A stretch of 64,000 bases of DNA from Naegleria gruberi (taxonomy: Eukaryota), in the NCBI GenBank assembly GCA_000004985.1, contig GG738896.1. One strand, given 5' to 3'. Below the pieces are notes generated by a model. It was not told the origin of the DNA, searched no databases, and saw nothing but the letters and a program-made list of their open reading frames with translations. Both the position numbers and the translations under genes were made by a program. Shown piece after piece: positions 4,092 to 52,039 of the stretch (positions are counted from its first letter, which is position 1; each line of letters begins with the position of its first letter).

Positions 4092-5693
4092 ATGAACTTT
4101 GAAAAAAAAATGTTTGACTTGTTTCGCTCCAAAAAGAAGGATGAACATGAAGAGAAATCCCTCTCCTTTCTCGTAATACCACATGGCAAGATTCATAATG
4201 ACTCATTCAAAATGTTGCCTATTGATATTGTGCTGGAAATTTTGGATTATATTTGTGGGGACGAGCAATTGATGATGAGCTTGACGAATTGTCATGATCA
4301 GGCGTTGAATAAGCAGATTCCTAGGGAGACTCCATTCAGAGAGAGGAAATGGACGCCTCCTGCATGGGATGTCAATTCCGATTTTAATGAATTAAAATTT
4401 GATGAGAAAAAGTTTTTCAAACAATACTTTGGAAAGTTCCCGAATAGAGATTCTAGTTGTCCAAGGCTGCTATTTAGAAAATTAGATTTGGGAGTGGATA
4501 GGTATTCTCCAAAAGAATTGTGTAGACTAATTCAAATTGTAAATTATGGAAATAAGCCAATTGTGATTGAGAAAACTTTAGCTCGTCAAATATTGCAGTG
4601 TATAAGAAGATTTGGACAAGTAAACGAGGATAAAGAAAAGGATATTGAAAAGAAAATGTTTAAATATTTGAGATATGTATTAAGGAATGGTCTGTGTGAG
4701 AGAGTTATTGGATTGGATATTGCTGGTATTGAAACATTTCCTTCTTTAATTAATGAGTTAGTACTAATGTGTCCGAATATAGAACATGTTAATCTTGGTT
4801 CGTATAACCAGAAGGAAAATTACCATGCAAAGCAAATTCTGATGAAAGATGTCAATGAGTCCATGATGATCTTGAAATTGTTAAAATCCTTTAGATGGAC
4901 TGGACATCATTTTGGTGAAGGTTTTATTGATGAGTTATCGAAACATACACCTCTATTGGAGAAGCTGGTTTTAAAATGTGAAACATCTGTTATATGTTGT
5001 CACGAAGCCATCCTAAATTGGAAGAATCTCAAACTAATTGTTTCAAAAATTAGTCCACATATTTATTCAAGAAATAATGGAACAGCAGAAGATCTATACA
5101 AGTTTTTCAAGAATATAAGTCAATTAGACAAGTTGGAAAAACTTGTTTTGAATGAAAACAATATTAAGGAAGGAAATATTCAATCATTACCTCATTCTCT
5201 GACATGTTTAGATTTGAGTAATACCCAGATTCCAGACAACTTTCTTCAAATTGTCGCATCCTTGCCCCAATTAAAGTCTCTGGGATTGAACTGTTATTAT
5301 GGAGGAAGGGATTCTTTGAAGCATCTCGTTGGATTGAAACACACTCTCGAAGAATTACACATAACCCAAAGTAGTAGTTGTGGAGATGAAGGTGTGATGT
5401 ATATTTCGCAAATCGAATCTCTAAAGAGACTATTTCTAATGAACCTAAGCCAAGATCAAATCAATGACACTGGAGGTTATGAGCTAGCCAAATTGAAAAA
5501 TTTGGAAATTGTTGGTCTTGAATATTGTTACATTTCACACAAAACAGTTAACAGTATTGCAGCAAGTTGTCCTAACATTAAGAAAATCCACATTGATGGA
5601 TGCCACAACATTAAGAAACACAAATTATCAAAGCAAGCCTTCTCTTTAATAGATGATGCATCTTATGCTGTTAGAATTTCAGAAGATCTATAA
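4092..5693 (+). CDS. F-box-like / leucine-rich repeat (RNI-type) protein
   Basis: True ATG at 4092. N-terminal F-box-like LPIDIVLEILDYI. C-terminal LRR_RI repeats (LDLSNTQIPDNFLQIVASLPQLKSLGL.., NLEIVGLEYCYISHKTVNSIAASCPNIKKIHIDGC). Confidence 0.7.
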   Translation: MNFEKKMFDLFRSKKKDEHEEKSLSFLVIPHGKIHNDSFKMLPIDIVLEILDYICGDEQLMMSLTNCHDQALNKQIPRETPFRERKWTPPAWDVNSDFNELKFDEKKFFKQYFGKFPNRDSSCPRLLFRKLDLGVDRYSPKELCRLIQIVNYGNKPIVIEKTLARQILQCIRRFGQVNEDKEKDIEKKMFKYLRYVLRNGLCERVIGLDIAGIETFPSLINELVLMCPNIEHVNLGSYNQKENYHAKQILMKDVNESMMILKLLKSFRWTGHHFGEGFIDELSKHTPLLEKLVLKCETSVICCHEAILNWKNLKLIVSKISPHIYSRNNGTAEDLYKFFKNISQLDKLEKLVLNENNIKEGNIQSLPHSLTCLDLSNTQIPDNFLQIVASLPQLKSLGLNCYYGGRDSLKHLVGLKHTLEELHITQSSSCGDEGVMYISQIESLKRLFLMNLSQDQINDTGGYELAKLKNLEIVGLEYCYISHKTVNSIAASCPNIKKIHIDGCHNIKKHKLSKQAFSLIDDASYAVRISEDL

Positions 5694-29529: not shown

Positions 29530-31849
29530 TTATTGTGTAATTTGGAATACTTCAATTTCTAAAACTCTAAAATTAGCACATCCAGCCAAATATTTCGAAA
29601 TAGACTTTGAACTATAATTGCCCGTATCTGGAAGGTAATACGTGTGTCCAAATTTCGAATAAGAATTGAGATTTTCATTGCAATTATCAGCAATGCAAAA
29701 GTCATTTCCACCTCCAAATATTGGTAAATAAGAAGCTTTTGCAGAAATAGCAAATCTGTGTTGACCTGGCTTGATATTGAACTTGTTAAAAATATATACC
29801 ATTCCATTGCTAGTCACTTTTTGAAATATTTTAAAGATGAAAGCTGAAGTATCAGAGACGTATTCTACACCAGTGTTAGCCCAACTTTGCATTGTGAATC
29901 CTCCAAAAATATGTCCAAAATCTGACTGAATAATTGTAAGAGTAGGTCCCTTATTATCACAAAGTTCATGGAATTTTGATGCCTTGAAACCATCTCTTGA
30001 ACCTCTGTAGAGTAGAGTGGGCTTAATACGAGATTTGGTATGAACATTAATCTCATTGAACATTCTAGAATTTGGAATAATATTTGAGTTGAAAAAAATG
30101 TTCTTGAATTTTTCAGAATTACAATCAAAGGTATCATTATCGGCATTGAAAATGGCTTGTTCGAAATTGGAATTGGCAAAATCACACATTCTCAATTTAC
30201 ATGTGGAAAAGTTGCACTTTTTCAAGTTCGAGTCAAGAAATTTGCACTTGTCGAATAGCAAGTTCTTGAATTGATAATTTTCAAAGTTAATGGAATGGAA
30301 GGAACATTCGGTGAAGGTAATGTCATACAATTGAGATTCGGGAAATACGAATTCTCTATCGAAAGAGCATCTCCAAAATTCCACACATATGATTTCACAA
30401 TTTTCAAATTTGGTTTGGAAGGAACAATCTGAAAATCCAATATTCAACAATTTGCAGTCCTTAAACTTGTTGTTTTTCAAGTTTTCTAAATGACAATTTT
30501 CAAATGTGAAATCTGAAAATATGCATTCAGTAAAGCAATACGCCAAATTTAAATTGGTTTCGAATAGAGATCCAATCTGACTGTGTTTGACTTCTATACC
30601 TTGAATTGTAAGAGAGTTAAGTAAATCAGGGGAAATTTTGGAAAGATTAATTTGACACTTTTTCAATGTACTTCCCTTAATTGTATTCGAAAAATCGAAA
30701 TGTCTCATGTCCATATCAGAAAATGTGCATACATTGAGAGTACATTCTTTGCATTGCAAACTCTTTACACCAGTAAAGAACGATCCATCAAGAGTACAAT
30801 TCACAAACCTGCAACTTTCAATATTATTTGATTGATTGAATTGAAGTTGAACTCGACATGAAATCATTTTAGCACCTGCAAAGTTTGCCTTATCAATCAA
30901 ACAATTCTCAAATCTCACATTTCTAAATGTAGTTTTGGAAAAGTCACAATTAATGAAATCATAATGATAGGAGAATGTAATTAATGCAATTTCCATTCCA
31001 CTGAATTTCATATTTCTAAAGTATTTGGAATTCATGTGATTGTTAAATAATTGACCAAGTGTACTATTGATTGGAATTTTCTTCAATTCCTTCCAATAAT
31101 TCTTCAACTTGAAAACCTTACAAGCAGAAATCAATTGTTGCTTCAAAGTTGGTGATAAATCACTACTTGCAATGATATTGCCAAACTTGAACCATTCCAA
31201 TAGGTGCTTGAATACTGTTGGATCACAATCAACAAAGAAGGAACCATTCTTTTCGGTAAAGATATTGGTTCTTTCACCTTTCAATAATTTGATGAATAGA
31301 TTGGTTTCGTCCTCTCTTTTTGTGGAGGTGAAATATTTCTTATTGGTCATTATTAGTTGACCACCAATATTGAAATATATTGGATCCAGTTCCATTTCGT
31401 CATCATCGTCATCTTCAAACTCATCTTCGGATTGTTCTTCTTCAACTTGTTTCTTTTCTGCCTCCTCAACTGCTTCTTTTTGCTTTCGTTCAATTTCTTC
31501 CAAAATTGTCTTCCTTGTTGAACATTCTTCCAAATGTTCTAGAATTCTCCCTCTAGCTTCTTCTTTATTGCAATAACTACAAACTACCATCAGCTTGTCA
31601 ATGTAGTTTTTAATGTTTTTCGGAGCAGGTTTAGTTTGAAAATTGGCATCATGACATTTAGGACAAGTTGAAAGGGACTTGGCACATGCTAAACAAAACA
31701 TATTTTCACAAATAGTATGGAAAACAGGATCAGACAATGGCAGAGAACAGGAAGAACACAGCCACTCTTCTTCTACCTTCTCCACAAACGAAAAATCGAG
31801 TATTGTCGCATGAGATTGTGGTGTCACCTGCTGCTTCACTGTCAACATT
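29530..31849 (-). CDS. RING finger + TRAF-type zinc finger + BTB/POZ (T1/KCTD-type) + pentapeptide repeats + C-terminal TLDc domain (KCTD9-like core with extra RING/TRAF and TLDc)
   Basis: RING: CSSCSLPLSDPVFHTICENMFCLACAKSLSTCPKCHD. TRAF ZnF: CSYCNKEEARGRILEHLEEC. BTB: IYFNIGGQLIMTNKKYFTSTKRED..FVDCDPTVFKHLLEWFKFGNI. More than 30 A(N/D)LxF-type pentapeptide repeats follow. TLDc: LLYRGSRDGFKASKFHELCDNKGPTLTIIQSDFGHIFGGFTMQSW. ATG at about 31849; the track's 31866 is a TTG. Confidence 0.75.
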
Positions 31850-32460
31850 TTTTTTTCAAGGAACAATTTCCATAAAAGGGTGGTTTGACTGTGATTGATT
31901 ATATTGGTTACGATTCAATAATGGAAGGTTTAACTTTAAATACCATTATTGTAAAATATTGTAAAATATGTTAACAACCGAAATACTCGTACTATTATCC
32001 AAAGAAAACCTTAATATTTCAAATAAAGTTGTCGGTAAGAGCTCCGATTATGGAATTTTATGGTATGAAATCATTAAGGTGATTTTTCATAAAAGGTTTT
32101 GCATAGAATAGCCCCTATATTGAGAGCAAACAACGTACACTCCTCAACTTCTCAGATTTTCCACTCTGGGTTGATTCTTTACTTTTGATTGATTTGTAAA
32201 ATATCCGAGTAAGATGGTTTTGAATAATGGTTCCAAAAACTCTACAAAGCATCTTATGTAGCTTCCATTAAGCCAGAAGCAAGTTGTTGTGTGCAGAACA
32301 ACACTGTATCAACACGCAAAACTCACCTTGCTCAAATTATTACTGAGAAAAAAAAGAACAAACCTATTTAACCTTATAAACTCAACAGTGCCTAATTTCC
32401 CATCTGCTTGGAGTGAATTGTGGGGTGCCATCTGTAAAAGATTCTTAGAGGATAACGAAA

Positions 32461-37562: not shown

Positions 37563-37721
37563 ATGGCCAAGTGTGACTGGTGTAGTTTCAATGCTTCAAC
37601 TTTGGGTTCAATCTCTTGTAAGAATGGTTGCTCTCACAAGGTTTGTCCTGGATGTAAGAGTTCTCCTTCTGGAAAGGTTGGATTGAAATGTCCAACATGT
37701 GGTAAACCAGCTGGTTGGTAA
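37563..37721 (+). CDS. 52-aa cysteine-rich small protein (zinc-ribbon-like CxxC pairs), below the ORF-track cutoff
   Basis: MAKCDWCSFNASTLGSISCKNGCSHKVCPGCKSSPSGKVGLKCPTCGKPAGW*. It lies in the 390-nt gap between two minus-strand genes and is preceded by a CA-rich leader. Confidence 0.3.
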   Translation: MAKCDWCSFNASTLGSISCKNGCSHKVCPGCKSSPSGKVGLKCPTCGKPAGW

Positions 37722-37827: not shown

Positions 37828-40800
37828 TTAGGCCTTAGTAGCACATTTTGTTCCTTTCCATCCCTCATTACACGAACACTTTCCATCAGTAATGCAAATT
37901 CCATGTTTCGAACAAACCAATGGATTCGAAGCTCCATAACCAAAACAAACGAATTCTGTCGTTTCACATTCATTTCCAATTCTTCCTAGAGGACAAGCAC
38001 ATGTATCTGGACTAGTACAATTACCAACTCCACTACAAACTAATCCACTTACAATTTTTCCATAACAAATTGGTAAGGAACATTGAGTAGCTCCATAACC
38101 AGAGTTACATAGACAAGTATCAGGAGATATGCATTGACCTCGATTGGTACAATTCAGGGAACAGATTGGAGTGTTACAAGTTTCACCAATCCATCCTTGG
38201 TTGCATTGACATGTGAAAGGAGCTGTACAGTTGCCATTACCATTGCAAGATTGAGCACAGAATGGTGGTTCGTAAATTCGTTGATGGAGAGCATCAATAT
38301 CTGGATCAGAAACTGAATCACCACAAACAGATTGAAAACCTGAAATGTCAGAAGGTAAAATTGGACTTGATGTCAAGTTGGCATCTGTCATTTGGGCATA
38401 TGATTCAGTAATGAAACGAACATCATCCATAATAAACTCTCTATAATCCAATGTGATGTCATCAACTGGTTTTTGCATAAAGGTTACTCTTTGAATTGAG
38501 TTCAAACCTGTTTGATTTGTGAAAGGAATGTCACTAACTGGAATTCTGACACGAGTTACTCTTGTGTGATCAATCTTGAAATGTTGAATATACTTTGGAT
38601 CAATGTAAATTGCTGGAATATCAGTGAATGCAGTATTCTTAATTTCAGAAAAGAAAATATTCAAATTTAATTGACCTTCAGAAATGGATTGGATAAAGAA
38701 TTCGAAATATCTAAATTTAGAAAGGTCAATTAATTGAACAGGGCCTCCTTTAGTATAACTTTTAGTAATCTGAACTTTACCCATTCCCATTCCAAATCTA
38801 ATACTTGTACTTCCACAAATTGCTGCGGTTGAGTAATCTTTCTGAGCTAGTGGAACATCTTGTTTGGCTACAGTTTGTAAAACCCATCCAGTTTGAGTTG
38901 AGATATCAGTCGATTCACTGTAGAACTTGAACATGTCATCAGAAGAAATAGCTCCACATGGTTGACTGGCAGAAATTGAAATAGGAAGTGAACATCTTGG
39001 TGTACCAAATTGAGTAATACCATTGTTACAAAATAATTGGGCTCTCAAATGACCATTTGGATTAGTACTTGTTCTCAACAAGACGAAAACTTCTCCCTTC
39101 AAAAGTGAGATAATTTCATCATATGAAAAATCCATTGAAAATCTTGAAACTGAATAAGGACTTGGATAAATTGATGGTTCTTGTAAAAATCTGACAATTT
39201 CACCAATTTTACCAATTCCAACTTGAATTTGAGTTGCTAAATGAGATAGATCATGATAAACTGTAAAATCAACTGTTCTCTTATTTGCTAATAAGCCAGC
39301 AAGAACTTTACCGTTTCCTCCAGCATTGATCATGCTTGAGCTTACTTGGCAAGGTTGTAAAATTCCAGAGAATCTTTCTTCAAGAGTTACCTTTTTGATT
39401 CTATCAATGCTTGCGGTTGGGAAATCCCAATTATAGACTTGACAATTATTATTTGGACATGTGGCAGTGATTGAAAACTTGGTGGAATAACCAGTATATA
39501 GAGAATATTCATCATAATATTCAGCAAAGGCAGTTCTTCCACCAGTGTTCTTAAAATGCAAGAATAAATGTTCAGTTTGATTTTCATAGAAATAAGAATT
39601 TGGGTTGACCATTAAATCGTCAATAGAATTGACACGAGGCAATGCTCTCTGACTCATTGATGCTGTTTCATATCTGATATCGAGAACGGCAGTTCTTGGA
39701 TATTGAACAGCTAATACAATCCAATCATTATTTGCAATCGATCTCAAATAATATTGCAAGTCATTTGGAGTTCCAATATTTAAGGCCCATCTCAATACAT
39801 AAACATTCTTCAAAACTAAATTAGAATCCATCCAGAAACCTCTTGTTCCCATATTCCATCCATGTACTTGATCATATTTACCAGGATTAGAAGTATCGTG
39901 AATGAAAAGTCTTGGCATTTTAACAGTCAACTTGTTAAGGTTGGGATCACTTCCAAGAGGTGAACTAGTTGAGAAACCTGCATAATTGACAAGAGTTAAA
40001 GCACCGTAACCTTCTTTAAAGACAGGACAATTATAACTATTCCAATCTGGTTGAGCATTACAACCTGGAACAGTCAAGAAAGAATTATTAGAAACTGACC
40101 ATCCCCCTCCGGTGAATCCTGTCTTACTTCCATCAGTATCCAAAACAGTCATACCTCTATTACCATCTGTAGGTGCTTCCAAGTAGAATGCACTGTTTGA
40201 ATTTACAAAAGTCAAATTTCTCAATCTTCCTCCAGTTTCGTATTTGAAATTAGCATTTGACAAGTTTGTAATAGCTCCTGCCTTTCTATACGAATTGGAC
40301 TTGTAATTTCTAAATACGGTATTTCTTACGTAGGAAGGTCCTCCATTATCATAAAACTCATATGCCTTAAACTCCTCAGTGTTAGAGAAGAAACCAGGAT
40401 AGGAACGTGAAACATCAATGCCAGCTCTGTAAGTCTCGCCTACATTATCACTTTCCGCCTCAAATACTGAATCTTCCACAACACTTGGTTCACCAGCGAC
40501 ATCAATACCAATTCTAGAGTCACCAACAAACATATTTCTCAAAGTAATTGTGTCTGCTCTCAACCACAAAGCCCACTTTCTAATTTTGAAAGCAACAAAG
40601 TTTTCAATAATGCTTTCAACGATGGGTTTACTTTTTGAGCCACGAACTGGATAAGGAGGTTCTACAGGAACCCAGGTGTCATTTTCAGGAAATCCATTGA
40701 CATCTACAAAGTCATCAATGTGAAGACCGACATGATTAGCAGAGTGAACAACGTTATTCTTGAATGAACCAAGTGGAAGCATTCTAGGTCTAATCAATGT

Positions 40801-42263
40801 GGTATTGGCATATTTATCTTGAACTAGACCGATAGCATACTCTGGAAGTGAAAACCAATAGCCAAATTTACCACCAATAGCTCTGTTTCCCTCAAAATAA
40901 TTCATTGCCTTTTGTTGTGTAAGAATTGTGTAAAATTAAGGAATTACTTACATTGGTAATCCAGAAAACTGATACATCGTTATCTGTAGGTATTATTTGA
41001 AGCGGGTCTGAATCGATAATTGGTAAAACTTTAGCTCCCAAATTATTTTTGAACAAGTTGTACATTTCTGATCCATTTTCCAAGAAAAAGGCATGTCCAT
41101 TGATATTATAACAAACATTATTCTCAATTTGAATATAATTTGAATCATGAACAGTGATACATCTTTGATAAGAATTATAAATACTGTTATCCTTTAGAAT
41201 AAAAGGTTTGACAGTAGAGTTCAATGCCTTATCTCCTAATAAGTGAAAGTGAATTGAATAACGTCCCATTAAACCCTTTAAAATATAATTGTTAATCATT
41301 ATAATTCAATAGAATAAACTCACCTTTTGTCCCATTCGTCTCAATTCCACACCAACCATTTCGAATTGTTCAACAAGACGAATGATAACATGACCACCAA
41401 ATGAAGAAGAAGCACTGGATACATCCCCTTCAAACACAATATTCCTATTGAGTTTGGCAACTTCTCCTCTTGTAACTCCACTTGCATAGTGAGTGAACAA
41501 GAGTGTTTGGTTGACTATAAAAGTAGTCGAGTTAATAATTGAAACAATGGTTCTTTCCTCACTCTGATCAGGAAATGGAACACCAACTCGCCAAGTTGGA
41601 AGGGTGACTTTAGTTTTATCTAGAAGTTCTCCGTAATCTGTCGAGGTCAATAAGATGGAATCGCCAACTTTCCAATTGGTTGGAGAACGAGTCTTGATAA
41701 TGGTTGTTCCTTTGACGGCACTTTCAGCCAATTCTACCCAAGATAAACCATCAACAGAACCAACGATTTGAATGAAAGAACCTGAACAAGATGTAAAATT
41801 CATTCAAATGTCAAAACTTACCTGACATGGCAGCAAGACCTTTGGCTCCACCACTACTTCCATCAAATGGATCAATTCCAATAATATTGGAAGCAGTTCT
41901 ATTTCCATAGAAAGTAACCACAATTTTACCAGTAATTGGACAACTAGAGCTGCCAGCAATCAATTTACCTCCCTTGTCAACTCTAATAAATTGGAGAGTC
42001 AAATTTAAATTGACATTGTTAAATATCAAGCTTGCATTTTGTTGGACAATAATTCCATACAACAAAACACCAGGTGACTTATCCAAAAGCGTATTTTGTG
42101 AAATGGTAATGGTAGAATTGACCTTGTTCCAATCAGCAATCGAAGAAAACATTTTCAAGCCAGATTGTTGATGTGGACATTGACCAACTACCATCTTTAC
42201 ATTTCCAGCTACTAAAAACAAGATAGTTATTAGTAGAATAGTTTGTAAGAAACGGTTTAACAT
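37828..42263 (-). CDS. Secreted G8-domain / right-handed beta-helix (PbH1) protein with C-terminal EGF-like modules (CEMIP/TMEM2/PKHD1-like architecture); 4 exons (about 42263..41832, 41791..41324, 41275..40952, 40908..37828)
   Basis: Signal peptide MLNRFLQTILLITILFLVAGNV. G8 domain in exon 1. Beta-helix segments (IHFHLLGDKALNS.., NNVCYNINGHAFFLENGSE). C-terminal Cys-rich EGF-like modules (CNGNGNCTAPFTCQCNQGWIGETCNTPIC..). Introns are gtaagt..ttcag (40 nt), gtgagt..ttaaag (48 nt) and gtaagt..aaaag (43 nt). All phases were checked against ORFs 41811.., 41306.., 40892.. and 37828... Confidence 0.7.
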
Positions 42264-43933: not shown

Positions 43934-46900
43934 ATGCAACAACCACATTCCAGAACGTTTCTCTATTTGCTTTTCATATTAATATTGCAAGTGTGTTTGC
44001 AAGTTCAACAACATTCCACCACACTAGCTGTCAACACATGTTGGGGATATTCAGCTACTGACATTTCGAATGTATGTGGAGGTCATGGTTTCTGTCAAAG
44101 TACTGATTCTTGCTATTGTGTAGATTCAACGAGTAGTAATACTTTATATTCATCAGGAGGATCCAACACTCTCTATCAGGAAACTTCTCTATGGTCCACC
44201 AACTCTCAATTCGAATTGAAACAACAAAATGATGGTAATTTGGTAGTTTATACGAGAAGTGGAGGAGTGGTTTTCTCTTTCTCAACTTGGCAACAAACAC
44301 CTGATACTCCCTATACTTTAGTTCTTTCTGGGGATGGTACATTACAAGTTAAAAGTGGTGGAGGTGCCATTATAAAGACAATTTCAGGAGCATGTGGTGG
44401 TACAGCCCCTTACAAATTACTAGTCCAAAATGATGGTAATATAGTGCTCTATGGAGCACAGAGAGAAGTTTGTTTTGCTTCTGGAACATCTCAAGGTGGT
44501 TATTCACTTACGTATAATTGGGGTGGAGACCAGTGCAATCAATATCTTTGTTACGGGTTGACTGGTGCTAATGCATGTAATGGTCACGGCTCTTGTAATT
44601 CGAGGGATAGTTGCTCATGTAATAATGGATACAGTGGAAGTCAATGTACTGAGTACTACTGCAATAGTGTACTGTATTCTCAGATTGGTACAGTTTGTAA
44701 TGGTCATGGAACGTGTACGGCTCCAAATACTTGTCAATGTACTGGTGGATATAATGGTACTTTTTGTGCTTCATATCAATGTTATGGATTTGAATCGAAT
44801 GACCCAGGAGCATGTAGTGGATTTGGAACTTGTTCTTCACCAAATACTTGTACTAATTGTCTTGCTGGAAGATATGGATCTGAGTGCCAATATTATGATT
44901 GCGGTGGAATTAGATTTGATCAACCAAACGTATGCTCTGGAAGAGGAGAATGTGGTTCTAAAAACAATTGTACTTGTTCAGAGCCATACTTTGGAGATAA
45001 TTGTGAAAATTTTATGTGTAATGGAATCATTAACAATTCTACGCTCGTTTGTTCAGGCCATGGAGCATGTTCTTCACCAGAGAATTGTACTTGCCAAGAG
45101 GGTTACTTTGGAGAGAATTGTGAATTGTTTGAATGCAGTGGAATTTTGAAAAATGAATCAAATGTGTGCACTGGATTTGGTAATTGCACAGCATTTGATA
45201 GTTGTCAATGTGATGAGCAACATTATGGTAAATTCTGTGAAATTAATATTTGCAATGGAGTACTCTCAAACAGTCCAAGTGTTTGCTCTTCACATGGTCA
45301 ATGTAACTCATTCAATAATTGTACTTGTGATGAAAATTATAGTGGACAAAATTGTGAAATTTATGATTGTTATGGAGCTTCTAAAAATTCCTCCTCCGTA
45401 TGCTCTGGAAGAGGAACATGTTCAGCATATAACAATTGTAGTTGCTCTGCACCTTTTTATGGATCTGATTGTGGATTATATAATTGTTTTGGAGTAGAGC
45501 ACTTGAACGACAGTTCATGTTCATCCCATGGTTCATGTGATTCACCAAACAATTGTACATGTAAACCTGGATATTATGGAAACCGTTGTGAGTTTCATAA
45601 TTGTTATGGCACTCTCTTCAACAGCTCAGGTGTTTGTTCCACTCATGGACAATGCTTATCACCAAATAATTGTTTCTGTGAAGCAGGATTCTATGGACCA
45701 GAATGTGCAGAATATGATTGTTTTGGAGTTCATAAGAATTCTTCAAATGTTTGTTTCCAACATGGAGCTTGTTTGAGTCCAAATAATTGTTCTTGCCAGG
45801 AAGGATACTTTTCGTTTGATTGTTCTAATCATAGATGTTATGGATATTTATTTAATGATACTACAAATGTTTGTAATGGCCATGGCTCATGTCCTTATCC
45901 AAATAATTGTACATGTCAATCAGGATATTATGGATATCAGTGTGAATCTCATGAATGCTTTGGAAAGTTATTCAATATCTCGACTGTTTGTTCCACCCAT
46001 GGACAATGTTTGTCACCAAATAATTGTTTCTGTGAAGCAGGATATTATGGACCAGAATGTGCAGAATATGATTGTTTTGGAGTTCATAAGAATTCTTCAA
46101 ATGTATGCTTCCAGCACGGTACATGTTTGAGTCCTAACAATTGCTCATGCCAAGAAGGATACTACGGATTCGATTGTTCTAATCACAACTGTTTTGGAAT
46201 TCTGTTTAATGATACCATGAATGTTTGTAATGGTCATGGTTCTTGTTTTGTTCCAGATAATTGTACATGTCATCCAGGATATTATGGAAAAACCTGTGAA
46301 ATGCACAATTGTTTCAATATTTTGTTCAATGACTCAAATGTTTGCTCAGGAAAAGGTCAATGCTTATCACCAAATAACTGTTCCTGTGTTGATGGTTTTA
46401 CCAATAAGGATTGCTCAGTGAATATCAGTCCTTTCCAAATCAACCTCACAAAATACGAAGAAGTTGTTTATTTGGAGTTTGATAACAAGACTATTAGTGT
46501 TGAAATTCAATTGACAGATCGAGTATTGAGCCAAAGTCCAAATATTTCCTACACTTGGTCTTGTGCTCAGTGCGATGGACAAAATGTGGTGTATTATGTT
46601 GATTCTAATCGTTTGTTCATCAACTCTACATTAACTGATGTTACTCAAGCAGGCAATTACACTTTCATTGCAAACGCATCCATTGCTAATATTCAACCAT
46701 TCCAAAGTAGAAAATCCAACATTGAGCAATTCAAATTGGTTGTAAAGTATGATTTGAATCAGCCAACTTTGGGCTCCTTTGGCTTACCTTCTGTACTTGT
46801 ATCTAATACTCAAGATCAAACTATTTCAACTGTTATTAATAGTATCACTCTTAATCAAACAACTGTAAGATACTTTTTGGGTTGTGGTAGAAATTGCTCA

Positions 46901-49900
46901 ACTTTGGTTTCGTATTTATACGAAGTGAAGGCTGGAGTGTTTTATTACAAAAAATCAGGTTCTGTAATGGCACAATTTGAGAGCTCTAATCTATTGACCT
47001 TTTCTCCATCTGTTCCTATTCAAGCAACCATTCCATCTGATTATTTGAATGAAACAGTCTCATTCACATTTACAGTTATCAATAACAAGCAACAGAATAT
47101 CAGTTCAACTGTACAAATTCAAATTGTCTCCTCTGCAAGCCCACCAACACGACTGACAAACATAGTGGATGTTGTACCAACATATGGTATTTCAATGAGT
47201 GAAAAGTTTACAATTAAGGTTTCGGAGTGGGTTGCATCACCTGAACTGTTACCACTAAAATACGCTTTTGGATATTTTGATAAATCCAAGGCAGAAGCTG
47301 TGAGATTGACCGAATATGGTCTTAATACTACGTTTTCATCTTATCTACCTTATATTAGATCATCATCTAGCTCTAAGGCAAGAAGCATCTTGGAAGCTAC
47401 AGAGACAATTGCTTTGGTTGTCTTTGTACAAGACTCTCTTGGAAATGTCGAAACTGAAACGGCAGCTAATGTAACAGTATCTCCATTTAATGGAACTCAA
47501 GAGCAATATATTGAGGTTGTTAAATCTTTGAGCGGAGAATCACTATTGGTTGCCTCAGTGGATCAAACATTCACAAGCTTAGCATCATCATCATTGGTTT
47601 CAGCCCTCATTTCTAATATTGAAATTGATCCAAAGAATCCTTCTTCTTCTCTTTCCAGCTTGGAAACGCTCACGTCCAACAATGAAACACTCACAGCCAA
47701 TACAGTTACTCAGGTCATCAACAAATTGGATTCATTTATCTCCAATCTAACAGAGCTCTATTTAAGTGAACTTGCTCTATATGGCTATGTGAAATCCGGG
47801 ATGTCCAGTACAGACATTAGCAAAACAGTTCAAATTATTTCGAACTGTTTCTCTACTTCATATGATGCCGAAAAAACCAAATCAACAGCAAGTCTCGTCA
47901 CAGGTCTGATTTATTATGGAACTATTCCTTCTGTTGTAGACACAACATCCACAGAATTACCAACAACCTCTTACAAATCAACTTCTATTAACATTACTGT
48001 TTCTAGTTTCAACATGCCAACACCGAGTACGAATCTACAATCAGTCTCAGATACTGAAAGCAAGGTAGCAATGAATTTGACATCTATTTTGTCCAAATAT
48101 GGTGCCTATTCGACAACATGTGGTGCAACAATGATAATTTATTCAAAGAACACTAATTATGATTCCTCTGTTAGTAACATGACTATCAGTTCCTCTGTTA
48201 CTGACTTTAAATTCATGAGAAAACTGGATATTTTAGTATTGAAAAATTTGGATTCACCGCTCATACTTTCCTTCAATGCAGCCACAATCCCAAGCTCAGT
48301 GATCGCCAACTCCACAGTTACCAACAGTACGTATCATTGTAAGTATTGGGATGAGAGTCTTAAATTGTGGAGCAGCAATGGATGTTTATTGAATAGAGTT
48401 TCATCAAATTCAATTGAATGCGCTTGCTCTCATACAACTATGTTTACAACTTTCCTTGAATCCAAGACCACAGCACTTACTGTTCAACTCAAGGATCAGG
48501 TTTCGTCTTTATACTATGCCCAAATATCATTCGGTATTATTTACTTGATTGCCGCCAGTGCTATTTTGGTTGGATTGATTGTTTTGAGAAAATCGCAACC
48601 TGTTAGCTCTAGATTACTGACTCCATATGTTGGTTTGATTGCCTTAATTGTGGAATGTACATTGATTTACATAGTACAAAGATCTGTTCTCGTTGATCAA
48701 TTGAACTCTGCCAATACTCAAATGTGGGAAAATGGAGATACTGCTGCCAACATTATTGCAAACATTGTAATGATTATTGTAAACACTCTCAATTTAACTG
48801 CCATTTTCTGTTACGTCATGCAAGTTTTCAGATTCCAATTCATGAAATTGCTTTACAAGAAACTTTCTGATAATAGAACTCAAGCTCAAAGTGCAACAGT
48901 TTTGAAAGTATTGAAGTATACCACTTCTCAAATATTATTTTATTCATTGATTGGAATTTTTACTGCCCTAAATATTGCCTATTGGGTTATTTGGGTCATT
49001 CTGAGAAGAACTGGAGTTCTCACATCAACACAGTACACCTATGTTGTATCCCTTTCTTATACGGTTTGCATTTTGGCATTTGGTTTGATAATTACTGCTG
49101 TTGCAATCCTTGACATGATTCTCTCCTCAAAGAAGGAAGTTGAGCAAAAGAAAAATAGAAGAAAAGCTATTAACTTTTCACAACCAACCAGCAACTTTAG
49201 TCTTGATAATGCTGAAAATGTACATGAAAAGAAGAAAATTAATAGGAATGTATTCTTGAATGCTTTCAATTGGTTTACATCAATGGATGGACCACTCTAT
49301 TTCAGAATGGAAATGTTCATTTATATCGTGTCTTTCATTTTGCTAATATTGAATCAAGTTATTGGATTGAGTAGCTTAGCATACAGATTTGAGAGTTTGA
49401 CAATGTTTAAACTTGCTTTGACTTTTGATTCCATTTCCTTCATCTTTGAGGTACTCTATGTGGTCTCATATATTTTAGTATTTGGTGGTTATGCACTCAT
49501 TGTCGCAATCATTTACAAGGTTAGACAACGTAGAACAAGAAAGGAAGAACAAAAGAAACAAAATGAGGAAATTATGAATCAAGAACTTTACAATACTTTG
49601 GAATCTGAAGAAGGTTATGAACTCTTTGCCAACTTTTGCGAAAAAGAATTCAGTTCAGAAAATCTATTCCTCTTCTCTGATATCAAAGCAAGTCCAGATG
49701 TGGCCTCTGGTGAAAATCTAGGAGGATTACTCTTCTTTGCTGAGAGAATTTATGAAAAGTACATCAAGACAGGTGCAGAAATGGAAGTTAACATTCCATC
49801 AAAGAGTAGAACTGCTTTTGTCCAACTCTATGAAAAATGTAAGAAAGTTGAAACAAACTCTTCATTGGAATTATTAGATTCTAATTCTCTAGCTAAATCT

Positions 49901-50077
49901 GGAATTGAAACCAATATTGTAAAGGATTGTTTCGATTTAATGATGAGACAAGTAGTAATGAATTTAGGAGATACCTTTTCTAGATTTGTTTTCACACCAG
50001 AATATGTTAATTTCAAGGCGGTTAGAGACGTTCAAATGCAAATTATCGAGAAGGCCAATGTTGTCTATGATATTTAA
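43934..50077 (+). CDS. Giant adhesion-GPCR-like receptor: signal peptide - bulb-type (B) lectin - about 20 EGF-like modules - S/T-rich stalk - GAIN/GPS motif - 7TM - C-terminal RGS domain
   Basis: Signal peptide FLYLLFILILQVCLQV. B-lectin QNDGNLVVYT and VQNDGNIVLYG. EGF units have a CxxxxxCxC..GYxGxxC periodicity of about 40 aa. GPS: CKYWDESLKLWSSNGCLLNRVSSNSIECACSHTTMFTTF. Seven hydrophobic helices. RGS: FANFCEKEFSSENLFLFSDIKA .. AEMEVNIPSKSRTAF .. DCFDLMMRQVVMNLGDTFSRFVFTPEY. Single 6.1-kb exon with an A-rich context at the ATG. Confidence 0.8.
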   Translation: MQQPHSRTFLYLLFILILQVCLQVQQHSTTLAVNTCWGYSATDISNVCGGHGFCQSTDSCYCVDSTSSNTLYSSGGSNTLYQETSLWSTNSQFELKQQNDGNLVVYTRSGGVVFSFSTWQQTPDTPYTLVLSGDGTLQVKSGGGAIIKTISGACGGTAPYKLLVQNDGNIVLYGAQREVCFASGTSQGGYSLTYNWGGDQCNQYLCYGLTGANACNGHGSCNSRDSCSCNNGYSGSQCTEYYCNSVLYSQIGTVCNGHGTCTAPNTCQCTGGYNGTFCASYQCYGFESNDPGACSGFGTCSSPNTCTNCLAGRYGSECQYYDCGGIRFDQPNVCSGRGECGSKNNCTCSEPYFGDNCENFMCNGIINNSTLVCSGHGACSSPENCTCQEGYFGENCELFECSGILKNESNVCTGFGNCTAFDSCQCDEQHYGKFCEINICNGVLSNSPSVCSSHGQCNSFNNCTCDENYSGQNCEIYDCYGASKNSSSVCSGRGTCSAYNNCSCSAPFYGSDCGLYNCFGVEHLNDSSCSSHGSCDSPNNCTCKPGYYGNRCEFHNCYGTLFNSSGVCSTHGQCLSPNNCFCEAGFYGPECAEYDCFGVHKNSSNVCFQHGACLSPNNCSCQEGYFSFDCSNHRCYGYLFNDTTNVCNGHGSCPYPNNCTCQSGYYGYQCESHECFGKLFNISTVCSTHGQCLSPNNCFCEAGYYGPECAEYDCFGVHKNSSNVCFQHGTCLSPNNCSCQEGYYGFDCSNHNCFGILFNDTMNVCNGHGSCFVPDNCTCHPGYYGKTCEMHNCFNILFNDSNVCSGKGQCLSPNNCSCVDGFTNKDCSVNISPFQINLTKYEEVVYLEFDNKTISVEIQLTDRVLSQSPNISYTWSCAQCDGQNVVYYVDSNRLFINSTLTDVTQAGNYTFIANASIANIQPFQSRKSNIEQFKLVVKYDLNQPTLGSFGLPSVLVSNTQDQTISTVINSITLNQTTVRYFLGCGRNCSTLVSYLYEVKAGVFYYKKSGSVMAQFESSNLLTFSPSVPIQATIPSDYLNETVSFTFTVINNKQQNISSTVQIQIVSSASPPTRLTNIVDVVPTYGISMSEKFTIKVSEWVASPELLPLKYAFGYFDKSKAEAVRLTEYGLNTTFSSYLPYIRSSSSSKARSILEATETIALVVFVQDSLGNVETETAANVTVSPFNGTQEQYIEVVKSLSGESLLVASVDQTFTSLASSSLVSALISNIEIDPKNPSSSLSSLETLTSNNETLTANTVTQVINKLDSFISNLTELYLSELALYGYVKSGMSSTDISKTVQIISNCFSTSYDAEKTKSTASLVTGLIYYGTIPSVVDTTSTELPTTSYKSTSINITVSSFNMPTPSTNLQSVSDTESKVAMNLTSILSKYGAYSTTCGATMIIYSKNTNYDSSVSNMTISSSVTDFKFMRKLDILVLKNLDSPLILSFNAATIPSSVIANSTVTNSTYHCKYWDESLKLWSSNGCLLNRVSSNSIECACSHTTMFTTFLESKTTALTVQLKDQVSSLYYAQISFGIIYLIAASAILVGLIVLRKSQPVSSRLLTPYVGLIALIVECTLIYIVQRSVLVDQLNSANTQMWENGDTAANIIANIVMIIVNTLNLTAIFCYVMQVFRFQFMKLLYKKLSDNRTQAQSATVLKVLKYTTSQILFYSLIGIFTALNIAYWVIWVILRRTGVLTSTQYTYVVSLSYTVCILAFGLIITAVAILDMILSSKKEVEQKKNRRKAINFSQPTSNFSLDNAENVHEKKKINRNVFLNAFNWFTSMDGPLYFRMEMFIYIVSFILLILNQVIGLSSLAYRFESLTMFKLALTFDSISFIFEVLYVVSYILVFGGYALIVAIIYKVRQRRTRKEEQKKQNEEIMNQELYNTLESEEGYELFANFCEKEFSSENLFLFSDIKASPDVASGENLGGLLFFAERIYEKYIKTGAEMEVNIPSKSRTAFVQLYEKCKKVETNSSLELLDSNSLAKSGIETNIVKDCFDLMMRQVVMNLGDTFSRFVFTPEYVNFKAVRDVQMQIIEKANVVYDI
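45600..46400 (+). repeat. Intragenic higher-order tandem duplication (about 360 nt, or 3 EGF modules) with high nucleotide identity
   Basis: ..caccaaataattgtttctgtgaagcagga(t/a)t(c/t)tatggaccagaatgtgcagaatatgattgttttggagttcataagaattcttcaaatgt.. occurs at about 45660 and again at about 46020. At the protein level, HGQCLSPNNCFCEAGFYGPECAEYDCFGVHKNSSNVCFQHG..CLSPNNCSCQEGY.. is repeated. Confidence 0.7.
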
Positions 50078-51025: not shown

Positions 51026-52039
51026 ATGTCGCAACAAGCAACAATTGATTCATCATCATCGCCAGCAAACATGTATTTTCCGGTGCAAACAAAAATTTCA
51101 TGCCTCTTTGAAATTGAATTTTTAGAGAAGGAGAAGAAAGTTCTTGCTGTCAATAGATTATATAAGAAGGTTGTTAATTTACCAACCAATTCTGATGATA
51201 TCCGAGTGAATCCGACCATAAAAATTGATGGCACTTGTTGTCTTGTTCGTCAAGAGAAATTATTTAAACGTTATGATAGAAAATTGAATGCTTCGGGATC
51301 GAAGAAGAATAAGCAATTTCAAAAAGAAATTTCTCAAGGTACTGCCGATACTAATATTTTACAATTTGATATTTCAAAGGATTTTAAGGAGGGACCAAAA
51401 GGATGGATACCTTGTGATAGTATTGCTCATTTATTTACTGAGGAGAATAATTCAAATGTGGTTTCGTCTCAACATTTAGTGGGATGGATTCCTGTGGATT
51501 CTAATGATGCTGCAGATAAATGGCATTCTTCTGCGATAGTTTCGATTAATAATGAGCCACATGCCATAATGTTAATTCCCTATTTTGACCAAAATGATGA
51601 ACAAGCCAAGTTTTCAGTTGAATTTAGAAAGTTATCAAGTTTAGAAAATCAAACATTGGAATTAATTGGATCAAAAATTAATGGTAACGTTTATAACTTT
51701 CCTGCAAATGAAAAACAACACTTTTTAGTTCCACATGGATGGGCTTCCTATTCTTGGAAAGCAAGTAATGCATTTTTGGAGAATGTTAAAGAGCTCACCG
51801 TGGAAAAGCTTAAATCTTGGTTCGAAGATGAATCCAATATCATGAGTAAAAGTGAAGGTATTGTATTTCACATAATGTACAAAACAGAGGAAGGTAAGGA
51901 TAAGGAAATGCTGATCAAAATACACAGACACCACCTTAATTTGGATTGGCCTTTGAAGGGCTCTGCCATTCCACAATTTCAATATCAGTTGCAATGGATA
52001 GAAGAAGTTTTGAGACTCAAGAGTGAAAATAAACTCTAA
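51026..52039 (+). CDS. C12orf29-like (Rnl-family) 5'-3' RNA ligase homolog
   Basis: NPTIKIDGTCCLVRQEKLFKRYDRK matches the KxDG nucleotidyltransferase motif and flanks of human C12orf29 (..IPTEKVDGTCCYV..RLDRK) as recalled. Similar length, 337 aa against about 325. The N-terminal ..ISCLFEIEFLEK..KVLAV.. is also similar. Confidence 0.6.
   Translation: MSQQATIDSSSSPANMYFPVQTKISCLFEIEFLEKEKKVLAVNRLYKKVVNLPTNSDDIRVNPTIKIDGTCCLVRQEKLFKRYDRKLNASGSKKNKQFQKEISQGTADTNILQFDISKDFKEGPKGWIPCDSIAHLFTEENNSNVVSSQHLVGWIPVDSNDAADKWHSSAIVSINNEPHAIMLIPYFDQNDEQAKFSVEFRKLSSLENQTLELIGSKINGNVYNFPANEKQHFLVPHGWASYSWKASNAFLENVKELTVEKLKSWFEDESNIMSKSEGIVFHIMYKTEEGKDKEMLIKIHRHHLNLDWPLKGSAIPQFQYQLQWIEEVLRLKSENKL

What the first reader, a model, noticed from the sequence alone, without database searches (positions are those of the whole stretch)
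37828..42263. Four-exon secreted G8/beta-helix/EGF protein (hyaluronidase-like CEMIP/TMEM2 fold) in a protist
The G8 and PbH1 combination is characteristic of metazoan CEMIP/TMEM2/PKHD1-like proteins. Here it is fused to tandem EGF modules and a signal peptide. It could be an extracellular polysaccharide-binding or -cleaving factor. All three introns are 40-48 nt with strong GTAAGT/GTGAGT donors.
Basis: partly seen in the sequence, partly recalled or inferred. Interest (0 to 1): 0.5.

Follow-up and report, generated by a model that had tools for sequence, protein, structure and literature searches.

The report
Naegleria secreted CEMIP-like beta-helix/EGF protein
This is a real four-exon gene of the amoeba Naegleria gruberi, already in the databases as an unnamed "predicted protein", that encodes a secreted relative of the animal hyaluronan-degrading proteins CEMIP/TMEM2; it lacks their hyaluronan-linked lectin domains and most likely binds or cuts some other polysaccharide.

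Summary
On the minus strand, 42263-37828 holds a four-exon CDS with introns of 40, 48 and 43 nt. It encodes 1434 aa. The product is exactly identical to N. gruberi NAEGRDRAFT_72273 (XP_002672662.1, UniProt D2VTE7, "predicted protein").

Architecture, in order:
- signal peptide
- G8 domain (E=5e-17)
- CEMIP-type beta-helix (E=1e-61)
- domain X
- CHRD-like domain
- four EGF modules

Both GG/lectin domains of CEMIP/TMEM2 are absent. These include the one that carries the only residues known to be needed for hyaluronan breakdown. The protein therefore shares the fold but is not a hyaluronidase orthologue.

It belongs to a small family of amoeboid-protist and Flavobacteriia proteins. The bacterial members sit in sulfatase/rhamnosidase clusters. 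Among the family members whose domains I checked, the EGF tail occurs only in this gene.

Most likely function: a secreted enzyme or binder for an anionic polysaccharide. Catalysis is inferred, not shown. This is an ordinary, uncharacterised member of a known superfamily, of modest interest.

The parts
41822..42263 (-). Exon 1 (aa 1-147 plus 1 nt): start ATG at 42263, signal peptide aa 1-27 (42263-42183), first part of G8
   Evidence: exact match to XP_002672662.1
41782..41821 (-). Intron 1, 40 nt, GTAAGT...CAG, phase 1; contains an in-frame TGA if retained
   Evidence: junction restores the KGLAAMSG|SFIQ motif alignment
41324..41781 (-). Exon 2 (aa 148-300): end of G8, small beta-sandwich insert (aa 167-273), start of the CEMIP beta-helix
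41276..41323 (-). Intron 2, 48 nt, GTGAGT...AAG, phase 0
   Evidence: junction restores MGQK|GLMGRY
40952..41275 (-). Exon 3 (aa 301-408): core of the CEMIP beta-helix, with the conserved motifs YSIHFH, QRCITVH, GHAFFLENGSE, PTDND and FWITN
40909..40951 (-). Intron 3, 43 nt, GTAAGT...AAG, phase 0
   Evidence: the 43-nt version (not the 61-nt alternative) gives a gap-free FWITN|AMNYF alignment
37828..40908 (-). Exon 4 (aa 409-1434 plus TAA stop at 37830-37828): rest of the beta-helix, domain X, CHRD-like domain, CBM-like domain, four EGF modules
41726..42116 (-). G8 domain, aa 50-166 (spans intron 1)
   Evidence: Pfam PF10162, E=5e-17, 62.4 bits against cut-off 22.9
40723..41404 (-). CEMIP-type right-handed beta-helix, aa 274-470 (spans introns 2 and 3). 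It carries the residues that are invariant or nearly so across the family: H278, E293, Q299, Y306, H309, H311, R338, H343, N353, H361, E366, E370, N378, D398, N416, N460, H463
39529..39819 (-). Domain X beta-sandwich (Pfam match aa 772-868; the structural domain is roughly aa 700-905)
39034..39360 (-). CHRD-like beta-sandwich, aa 925-1033
   Evidence: PF07452 is weak here (E=0.063). The colinear region of paralogues P0002, P0007, P0011, P0191 and P0194 passes the cut-off. Modelled pLDDT about 74-89
38398..38955 (-). Carbohydrate-binding-module-like beta-sandwich, about aa 1060-1245
37840..38262 (-). Four tandem six-cysteine EGF modules, aa 1291-1320, 1323-1352, 1355-1390 and 1395-1431; three more residues, then the stop
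   Evidence: EGF_TEN E=1e-21, EGF_Teneurin, EGF_2; 24 Cys in a 4x6 pattern. Absent from all 14 homologues whose Pfam domains were scanned here and from the precomputed domain lists of the hits

Best explanation
The locus is N. gruberi gene NAEGRDRAFT_72273. Its product enters the secretory pathway through a cleaved N-terminal signal peptide. It is probably heavily N-glycosylated and disulphide-bonded, and it is released outside the cell, because it has no membrane anchor.

Its working part is a long right-handed beta-helix. The G8 domain is the first turns of that helix, as in TMEM2. One face of the helix carries a ladder of residues conserved from bacteria to animals, rich in His, Glu, Asp and Asn. 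This groove binds, and probably cleaves, a polysaccharide. The substrate is most likely anionic (uronic or sulphated) and comes from prey or biofilm matrix or from the amoeba's own coat or cyst wall. It is unlikely to be hyaluronan.

The CBM-like sandwich near the C-terminus would help target the glycan. The four EGF modules sit where paralogues carry a mucin stalk, a hydrophobic anchor or nothing. They probably act as a protein-protein tether to the cell surface or matrix.

Shown here: gene structure, identity, domain content, fold, and absence of the GG domains.
Inferred: secretion, glycan binding, catalysis, the substrate class, and the role of the EGF tail.
For: Gene model and identity.

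Secretory features: a single hydrophobic segment at aa 1-27, followed by the QCPHQ motif shared with all homologues; 19 sequons; an even number of cysteines.

Fold:
- The AF2 model has pLDDT 90.7 and pTM 0.91.

Functional core:
- 62 of the 70 columns that are at least 85% conserved in 35 relatives (bacterial, amoebozoan, heterolobosean and one mollusc) are kept.
- These include nearly all the polar ones.
- By DSSP, the conserved histidines fall in or next to one strand (the first of three) in each of five successive coils. This points to a single face of the helix.

Groove access: the loop that occludes the mid-helix groove in human TMEM2 (residues 627-662) is 19 residues shorter here (alignment).

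Glycan targeting: the C-terminal domain is CBM-like.

Context of bacterial homologues: in three Flavobacteriia, the T9SS-secreted homologues lie among sulfatases, a GH78-like rhamnosidase, rhaM, rhamnose catabolism genes, GH43 and GH3. That is a polysaccharide-degradation setting.
Against: - No activity has been shown for any non-animal member.
- Even for TMEM2, catalysis by the purified ectodomain is disputed: no activity and no assignable active site in PMC10206443, activity reported in PMC10474455.
- Two well-conserved positions are changed here (H333Y and N539S), and this is the longest branch among the Naegleria paralogues.
- G8/beta-helix proteins such as fibrocystin are regarded as receptors.
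- EGF repeats are typical of adhesion proteins.
- I could not inspect model coordinates, so the claim that the conserved residues share one face rests on strand periodicity only.
- No expression or localisation data were found.
Confidence: 0.55

Rival explanations
1. It is a non-catalytic adhesin or lectin. The beta-helix and the CBM-like domain only bind glycans, for example on bacterial prey, the substrate or the cyst wall. The EGF modules mediate protein contacts. The protein would then serve adhesion, prey capture or matrix assembly rather than depolymerisation.
For: - The active site of TMEM2 could not be assigned, and purified TMEM2 ectodomain was inactive in one careful study (PMC10206443).
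- Related G8 proteins (fibrocystin/PKHD1L1) are treated as receptors (general knowledge), and G8 domains were grouped under cell adhesion in a bacterivorous flagellate transcriptome study.
- Adhesins such as PfbA and Vag8 appear among the beta-helix fold matches.
- The EGF tail and the membrane-anchored paralogues suggest cell-surface biology.
Against: - About 30 polar residues are conserved from Flavobacteria to animals in the helix core. That is more typical of a catalytic site than of a binding surface that follows varying ligands.
- The bacterial members sit in catabolic clusters with sulfatases and glycosidases.
- Nearly all the close fold matches are depolymerases.
Confidence: 0.3
2. It is a true hyaluronidase orthologue of CEMIP/TMEM2 that depolymerises hyaluronan.
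For: Strong fold and sequence similarity to the TMEM2 ectodomain. [quoted passage not shown]
Against: - GG-1, the domain carrying R187/R265, D273, D286 and the His248/Ala303 positions on which hyaluronan degradation depends (PMC12423501), is absent, and so is GG-2.
- The closest relatives come from free-living amoebae and marine bacteria.
- N. gruberi is a free-living bacterivore that is not known to meet or make hyaluronan (general knowledge).
- The bacterial homologue loci point to sulphated rhamnose-containing glycans.
Confidence: 0.04
3. It is a gene-model artefact or pseudogene. The EGF tail or the upstream exons would belong to separate genes, or the locus would be decaying.
For: A 97.6%-identical metagenomic strain copy (L002) has its frame broken between the CBM-like and EGF parts. 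A prokaryotic gene caller split that copy into five ORFs.
Against: - In the window, the helix, X, CHRD, CBM and EGF parts are one uninterrupted 1025-codon ORF.
- The upstream exons complete conserved motifs.
- The break in L002 is a roughly 30-bp local inversion in a short-read metagenome assembly.
- Between the two copies, exon divergence (1.07%) is lower than flank divergence (2.1-3.7%), and all other indels lie outside the exons.
- 62 of 70 family-conserved positions are intact.
Confidence: 0.03

Closest known systems
Human/mouse TMEM2 (CEMIP2) and CEMIP (KIAA1199/HYBID); TMEM2 ectodomain structure PDB 8c6i
   Same: - G8 merging into a continuous right-handed beta-helix, with a small beta-sandwich insert, followed by domain X.
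- Shared motifs GRYxxHFH, QRCxTVH, GHxxFLEDGxE and FWITN.
- Extracellular location; like CEMIP, it has a signal peptide and no anchor.
   Different: - No GG-1 lectin-like domain inserted in the helix and no GG-2 after domain X.
- A CHRD-like domain, a CBM-like sandwich and four EGF modules follow domain X instead.
- The loop corresponding to TMEM2 627-662 is 19 residues shorter.
- The substrate is unlikely to be hyaluronan.
Naegleria/Willaertia 'G8 domain-containing proteins' (N. lovaniensis C9374_010443, N. gruberi NAEGRDRAFT_46431 and _66848, W. magna ABK040_007917), plus relatives in Planoprotostelium and in unnamed protist metagenome sequences
   Same: Colinear over aa 1-1290 at 38-44% identity: signal peptide, QCPHQ motif, G8, beta-helix, X, CHRD, C-terminal sandwich, ending near a CG...DPD motif.
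   Different: None carries EGF modules. Their tails are either absent or are Ser/Thr/Pro-rich stalks with a C-terminal hydrophobic anchor. This gene is the most divergent Naegleria paralogue. The intron positions seen in the N. lovaniensis gene do not obviously coincide with the three here.
Flavobacteriia T9SS-secreted G8/CEMIP-beta-helix proteins (Polaribacter, Nonlabens, Algibacter)
   Same: G8 plus CEMIP beta-helix with the same invariant residues, at about 25-30% identity. Secreted.
   Different: - Bacterial, with a Por_Secre_tail sorting domain.
- Different C-terminal modules.
- Encoded in sulfatase/rhamnosidase/rhamnose-catabolism clusters.
- Only the helix part matches.
Beta-helix polysaccharide lyases and hydrolases (K1 capsule lyase 7w1c, phage capsule depolymerases, GH87 alpha-1,3-glucanase, PL6 alginate lyase, chondroitinase B 1dbg)
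   Different: Only 7-12% identity. No G8, domain X or CHRD. Their catalytic residues (for example the Ca2+ site of chondroitinase B) have no established counterpart in the CEMIP family.
CBM8 (D. discoideum endoglucanase, 7t7z), CBM30 and CBM11
   Different: 14-17% identity. No Pfam CBM family is hit. Ligand-binding residues were not examined. The model confidence there is moderate (block pLDDT about 52-91).

Membership tests
CEMIP/TMEM2 (HYBID) hyaluronan-depolymerising proteins | N-terminal G8 domain | tested here: met
   PF10162, 62.4 bits against cut-off 22.9, E=5e-17, aa 50-166
CEMIP/TMEM2 (HYBID) hyaluronan-depolymerising proteins | CEMIP-type right-handed beta-helix continuous with G8 | tested here: met
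CEMIP/TMEM2 (HYBID) hyaluronan-depolymerising proteins | Domain X beta-sandwich after the helix | tested here: met
   PF24605 scores 27.0 bits, just under the 27.6 cut-off. However, the region (aa ~700-905) is modelled with good confidence and lies inside the 780 of 879 residues superposed on TMEM2. Paralogues pass the Pfam cut-off
CEMIP/TMEM2 (HYBID) hyaluronan-depolymerising proteins | GG-1 lectin-like domain inserted in the helix, carrying R187 (CEMIP) / R265, D273, D286 (TMEM2), which are required for hyaluronan degradation | tested here: not met
   No lectin/ILEI-type family is hit even at E<=1. The G8 domain and the CEMIP beta-helix match are 108 aa apart here, against about 290 aa in a mollusc TMEM2-like protein. 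About 210 TMEM2 residues have no real counterpart in the pairwise alignment. The requirement comes from PMC12423501 and PMC10206443
CEMIP/TMEM2 (HYBID) hyaluronan-depolymerising proteins | GG-2 lectin-like domain after domain X | tested here: not met
   A CHRD-like and a CBM-like domain occupy this position
CEMIP/TMEM2 (HYBID) hyaluronan-depolymerising proteins | Binds or depolymerises hyaluronan | not testable with these tools
   Needs biochemistry
G8 + CEMIP_beta-hel superfamily (Pfam PF10162 + PF24606; includes fibrocystins and bacterial T9SS proteins) | Both profile matches above the curated cut-offs, with the family-invariant residues retained | tested here: met
   All 18 invariant columns and 62 of 70 columns that are at least 85% conserved are retained
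Amoeboid-protist G8-helix-X-CHRD-sandwich subfamily (Naegleria, Willaertia, Planoprotostelium and others) | Full-length colinearity from the signal peptide to the C-terminal sandwich | tested here: met
   97-100% query coverage at 38-44% identity. Exhaustive phmmer finds about 20 representatives that match aa 409-1250 end to end
Amoeboid-protist G8-helix-X-CHRD-sandwich subfamily (Naegleria, Willaertia, Planoprotostelium and others) | CHRD domain | tested here: inconclusive
   14.6 bits against cut-off 24.1 in this protein. The aligned region passes in P0002, P0007, P0011, P0191, P0194 and P0198
EGF-like modules (EGF_2 / teneurin type) | Tandem units with six cysteines each, with profile matches | tested here: met
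   EGF_TEN 78 bits (cut-off 65), EGF_Teneurin 57.3 (24.3), EGF_2 40.2 (22.1); 24 Cys in four units
Carbohydrate-binding modules (CBM8/30/11-like beta-sandwich) | Beta-sandwich fold similarity | tested here: met
Carbohydrate-binding modules (CBM8/30/11-like beta-sandwich) | Conserved ligand-binding residues or demonstrated glycan binding | not tested
   No coordinates could be inspected and there is no biochemistry
PL6 / chondroitinase B type lyases | Ca2+-binding acidic pair and Lys/Arg catalytic residues in the groove | not tested

The most novel reading that the evidence does not exclude
The GG-less protist and bacterial proteins may represent the ancestral, self-sufficient form of the CEMIP/TMEM2 enzyme. 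On this reading, the ladder of His, Glu, Asp and Asn residues that is invariant across kingdoms on one face of the helix would be the active site that could not be assigned in the TMEM2 crystal structure. In this protein the ladder is H278, H309, H311, H343, H361, E366, E370, D398, N416 and H463. The Naegleria protein would then be a secreted depolymerase of an anionic microbial or algal polysaccharide, with a more open groove. It would offer a tractable model for settling whether the CEMIP-family helix is catalytic.
Probability: 0.2. Interest if true: 0.6.

Novelty: new member of a known kind. Interest (0 to 1): 0.3.

Why it matters
In itself the finding matters little. The gene is already deposited (as 'predicted protein'), its domains are found by standard profile searches, and mixing of extracellular modules is common.

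Its value is comparative. Whether the beta-helix of CEMIP/TMEM2 is catalytic, and where the active site lies, is disputed. These are medically important proteins in hyaluronan turnover, cancer and deafness. This protein belongs to a small set of homologues (about 300 cluster representatives among 1.84 billion) from amoebae and marine bacteria. They keep the helix core but lack the lectin domains. They define about 30 polar residues conserved across kingdoms. In bacteria, they sit in clear polysaccharide-degradation loci. That gives concrete residues to mutate and simpler proteins to assay.

For Naegleria biology, it adds a candidate secreted glycan-active factor for feeding, adhesion or wall remodelling.

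Tried and rejected
1. The first homologue search found no identical protein, which suggested an unannotated gene or another genus. This was wrong. The exact look-up showed that the protein is XP_002672662.1. Its 90% cluster is represented by a 200-aa fragment.

2. Exact-product contig look-ups for five window ORFs and for P0056 all failed. That index evidently lacks the N. gruberi assembly, so the deposited gene table for the locus could not be read.

3. Synteny with the nearest N. lovaniensis paralogue: none. Its introns are at other positions, so intron conservation gives no support.

4. I used the 97.6%-identical strain contig L002 to test exon against intron constraint. There is too little divergence: 0 substitutions in 130 intron bases, and only a mild third-position excess (23 against 13 and 10). 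Only the contrast between exons and flanks is informative.

5. A downstream exon encoding a membrane anchor: none. The TAA is followed by a convergent small ORF and then the next gene.

6. Generic Pfam Beta_helix (PbH1): below its cut-off.

7. Literature searches found nothing. I searched for the accession numbers, for G8 domain with Naegleria, for G8 domain with polysaccharide utilisation, and for ulvan or rhamnan with CEMIP/TMEM2/G8. The Naegleria pangenome paper does not mention these proteins.

8. Recent exon shuffling from the neighbouring EGF-rich gene: its EGF modules are only 35-39% identical to these, so there is no evidence for it.

Full report
**1. The observation**

The minus strand between 42263 and 37828 carries four ORFs of 150, 165, 135 and 1025 codons. 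They lie in different frames or are separated by stops. Reading the sequence and testing every GT...AG combination gives one best open frame:
- Exons: 42263-41822, 41781-41324, 41275-40952 and 40908-37828.
- Introns: 40 nt (GTAAGT...CAG), 48 nt (GTGAGT...AAG) and 43 nt (GTAAGT...AAG).
- Product: 1434 aa.

Three alternative acceptor combinations also stay open. However, they delete conserved residues.

In a MAFFT alignment with 11 homologues, the three junctions fall inside strongly conserved motifs. The chosen splice sites give gap-free alignment through KGLAAMSG|SFIQ, MGQK|GLMGRY and FWITN|AMNYF.

The decisive check is an exact-sequence look-up. The 1434-aa product is identical to EFC39918.1 / XP_002672662.1 / UniProt D2VTE7, 'predicted protein' NAEGRDRAFT_72273 of Naegleria gruberi, on a 331,721-bp scaffold. 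No cDNA evidence was available to me.

**2. The organism**

A class-III aminotransferase ORF in the window is 100% identical to an N. gruberi protein. Four further window ORFs are exact N. gruberi entries. G+C is 30-37% throughout, and the window is gene-dense. 'Protist' is correct.

My first homologue search did not list the protein itself. The reason is that its 90% cluster is represented by a 200-aa fragment. For a while this wrongly suggested an unannotated gene.

**3. What the protein contains**

Pfam results:
- G8, aa 50-166: E=5e-17, 62.4 bits against a cut-off of 22.9.
- CEMIP_beta-hel, aa 274-470: E=1.2e-61.
- CEMIP_X, aa 772-868: 27.0 bits, just under the 27.6 cut-off.
- CHRD, aa 925-1033: weak, E=0.063.
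- EGF_TEN, EGF_Teneurin and EGF_2, aa 1291-1432: all above their cut-offs.

The EGF part is four six-cysteine units.

The only hydrophobic segment is aa 1-27. It is followed by the QCPHQ motif with which the mature part of every homologue starts. There are 19 N-x-S/T sequons and 38 cysteines. The stop codon is followed by a convergent small ORF and then the next gene, with no further exon encoding an anchor. A secreted, glycosylated, disulphide-rich protein is therefore the natural reading. No signal-peptide predictor was available.

**4. Structure**

The model of aa 895-1434 is only moderate (pLDDT 62), and its EGF part is poor. Two beta-sandwiches in it are reasonably predicted. The larger one (about aa 1060-1245) matches carbohydrate-binding modules:
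- Further matches to CBM29, CBM22 and CBM4.

**5. What is missing**

In TMEM2 the G8 domain is the start of the helix. A small sandwich and a lectin-like (GG-1) domain are inserted after three turns. Domain X follows the helix, and a second lectin-like (GG-2) domain follows that (PMC10206443).

The only mutations known to reduce or abolish hyaluronan degradation lie in GG-1: R187 in CEMIP, and R265, D273, D286 and the His248/Ala303 positions in TMEM2 (PMC12423501).

The Naegleria protein has the small sandwich but no GG-1:
- No lectin family is hit even at E<=1.
- The G8 domain and the CEMIP beta-helix match are 108 aa apart, against about 290 aa in a mollusc TMEM2-like protein.
- About 210 TMEM2 residues lack a counterpart in the pairwise alignment.

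GG-2 is replaced by the CHRD-like and CBM-like domains. The protein therefore shares the fold and the core of CEMIP/TMEM2. It fails two defining features of that family as a hyaluronan-degrading system.

**6. Relatives**

Relatives by identity over aa 1-1290:

| Relative | Identity |
|---|---|
| N. lovaniensis C9374_010443 | 44% |
| Willaertia magna protein | 41% |
| Further N. lovaniensis paralogues; N. gruberi NAEGRDRAFT_46431 and _66848 | 38-39% |
| Unnamed protist-like metagenome and transcriptome proteins | 28-33% |
| Planoprotostelium protein (53% of the query covered) | 33% |
| Flavobacteriia T9SS proteins (helix only) | about 30% |
| A mollusc 'cell surface hyaluronidase-like' protein | 29% |

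The protist proteins share the architecture G8, helix, X, CHRD, sandwich.

An exhaustive phmmer scan with aa 409-1290 against 1.84 billion cluster representatives finds only 301 at E<=1e-3 and 37 at E<=1e-30. About 20 of them match end to end. The family is small.

None of the 14 homologues I scanned has EGF modules. Their tails are either absent or consist of Ser/Thr/Pro-rich stalks with a hydrophobic C-terminus. The EGF tail is thus a lineage-specific replacement of a variable 'address' module. This gene is also the longest branch among the Naegleria paralogues.

The same gene, EGF part included, is present at 97.6% identity on a metagenomic contig, ENA ERZ929261. Exon divergence there is 1.07%, against 2.1-3.7% in the flanks. 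All indels lie outside the exons except a roughly 30-bp local inversion that breaks the frame in that assembly.

**7. How it probably works**

Across 36 sequences from bacteria, amoebae and a mollusc, 18 columns are invariant. A further set is nearly invariant. In the numbering of this protein these include E222, H245, E254, H278, E293, Q299, Y306, H309, H311, R338, H343, N353, H361, E366, E370, N378, D398, N416, N460 and H463.

This protein keeps 62 of the 70 columns that are at least 85% conserved in the others. It loses only H333 (to Y) and N539 (to S) among the polar ones.

By the DSSP strand pattern of the model, the conserved histidines fall in or next to the first strand of five successive coils: FGGH, SIHFH, CITVH, GHAFFLE and FWITN. 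This suggests one face of the helix. [quoted passage not shown] That the residues share one face is an inference from periodicity, because I could not inspect coordinates.

Of the two loops said to occlude the mid-helix region in human TMEM2, the first (627-662) is 19 residues shorter here (alignment).

In three Flavobacteriia, the homologues lie next to two to four sulfatases. Their other neighbours include a GH78-like rhamnosidase, rhamnose mutarotase, rhamnose catabolism genes, GH43 and GH3. One locus has three tandem copies. This is the setting of degradation of a sulphated, rhamnose-containing polysaccharide.

Taken together, the best explanation is a secreted, glycan-targeted beta-helix protein that binds, and probably cleaves, an anionic polysaccharide other than hyaluronan. 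The CBM-like domain would aid targeting and the EGF modules would act as a tether.

Catalysis is not shown for any non-animal member. It is disputed even for TMEM2 (PMC10206443 against PMC10474455). A purely adhesive role therefore remains a serious rival.

**8. Novelty and verdict**

Two corrections apply:
1. The G8/helix combination is not metazoan-specific.
2. The resemblance to hyaluronidases is one of fold, not of the hyaluronan-specific apparatus.

The gene is already deposited, though unnamed, and no paper I could search mentions it. It is a new, uncharacterised member of a known superfamily with an unusual tail.

Its main interest is comparative. Together with its bacterial and protist relatives, it defines a conserved polar ladder in the helix that could be tested as the unassigned active site of CEMIP/TMEM2.

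Noticed in passing
window 43934-50077 (+): The neighbouring gene, divergently oriented with one small ORF between, is D2VTE9 'B-lectin domain-containing protein', 2047 aa. It has a signal peptide, a lectin region, about 20 EGF modules, seven hydrophobic peaks (aa 1533-1860) and a C-terminal RGS domain. This is a 7TM-RGS receptor-like protein with a giant EGF ectodomain. Its EGF modules are 35-39% identical to those of the G8 protein.
   Followed up: partly
window 37563-37721 (+): A 52-aa cysteine-rich ORF (MAKCDWCSF...CPGC...CPTCGKPAGW), zinc-ribbon-like, lies convergent with the G8 gene, about 100 bp beyond its stop. The same 52-aa ORF is called on the strain contig L002 (5423-5581). I did not check whether it is annotated in N. 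gruberi.
   Followed up: no
L002 about 4660-4720, corresponding to window 38504-38471: A 97.6%-identical metagenomic copy of the locus (ENA ERZ929261, k127_505999) carries a roughly 30-bp segment that is the reverse complement of the window sequence. This causes a net 11-nt loss and a broken frame between the CBM-like and EGF parts. It may be an assembly artefact or a real micro-inversion in that strain.
   Followed up: partly
L003, L004, L005 (Polaribacter aestuariivivens, Nonlabens xiamenensis, Algibacter lectus-like contigs): Bacterial G8/CEMIP-beta-helix T9SS proteins sit directly downstream of a sulfatase, inside clusters holding further sulfatases. Depending on the locus, the clusters also hold a Bac_rhamnosid6H (GH78-like) gene, rhaM, an FGE-sulfatase, rhamnose catabolism genes, GH43 and GH3. 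L005 has three tandem G8 paralogues. This looks like an ulvan or sulphated-rhamnan utilisation locus. I found no paper linking G8 proteins to it.
   Followed up: partly
one search hit list: No N. fowleri protein appears among the homologues, although N. lovaniensis contributes four paralogues and N. gruberi three, and N. fowleri proteins are in the database. The family may be absent from the pathogen, or it may be hidden by clustering.
   Followed up: no
(method note): The window's own protein was invisible to the homologue search. Its 90%-identity cluster is represented by a 200-aa ORF fragment from a metagenome assembly. An exact-sequence look-up was needed to find it.
   Followed up: yes
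window 51026-52039 (+) and 29530-31866 (-): Two other genes were noted. One is an RNA ligase 1 (RLIG1) family protein, D2VTF0 (E=1.6e-42). The other is a 778-aa protein that combines BTB, pentapeptide repeats and a TLDc domain.
   Followed up: no
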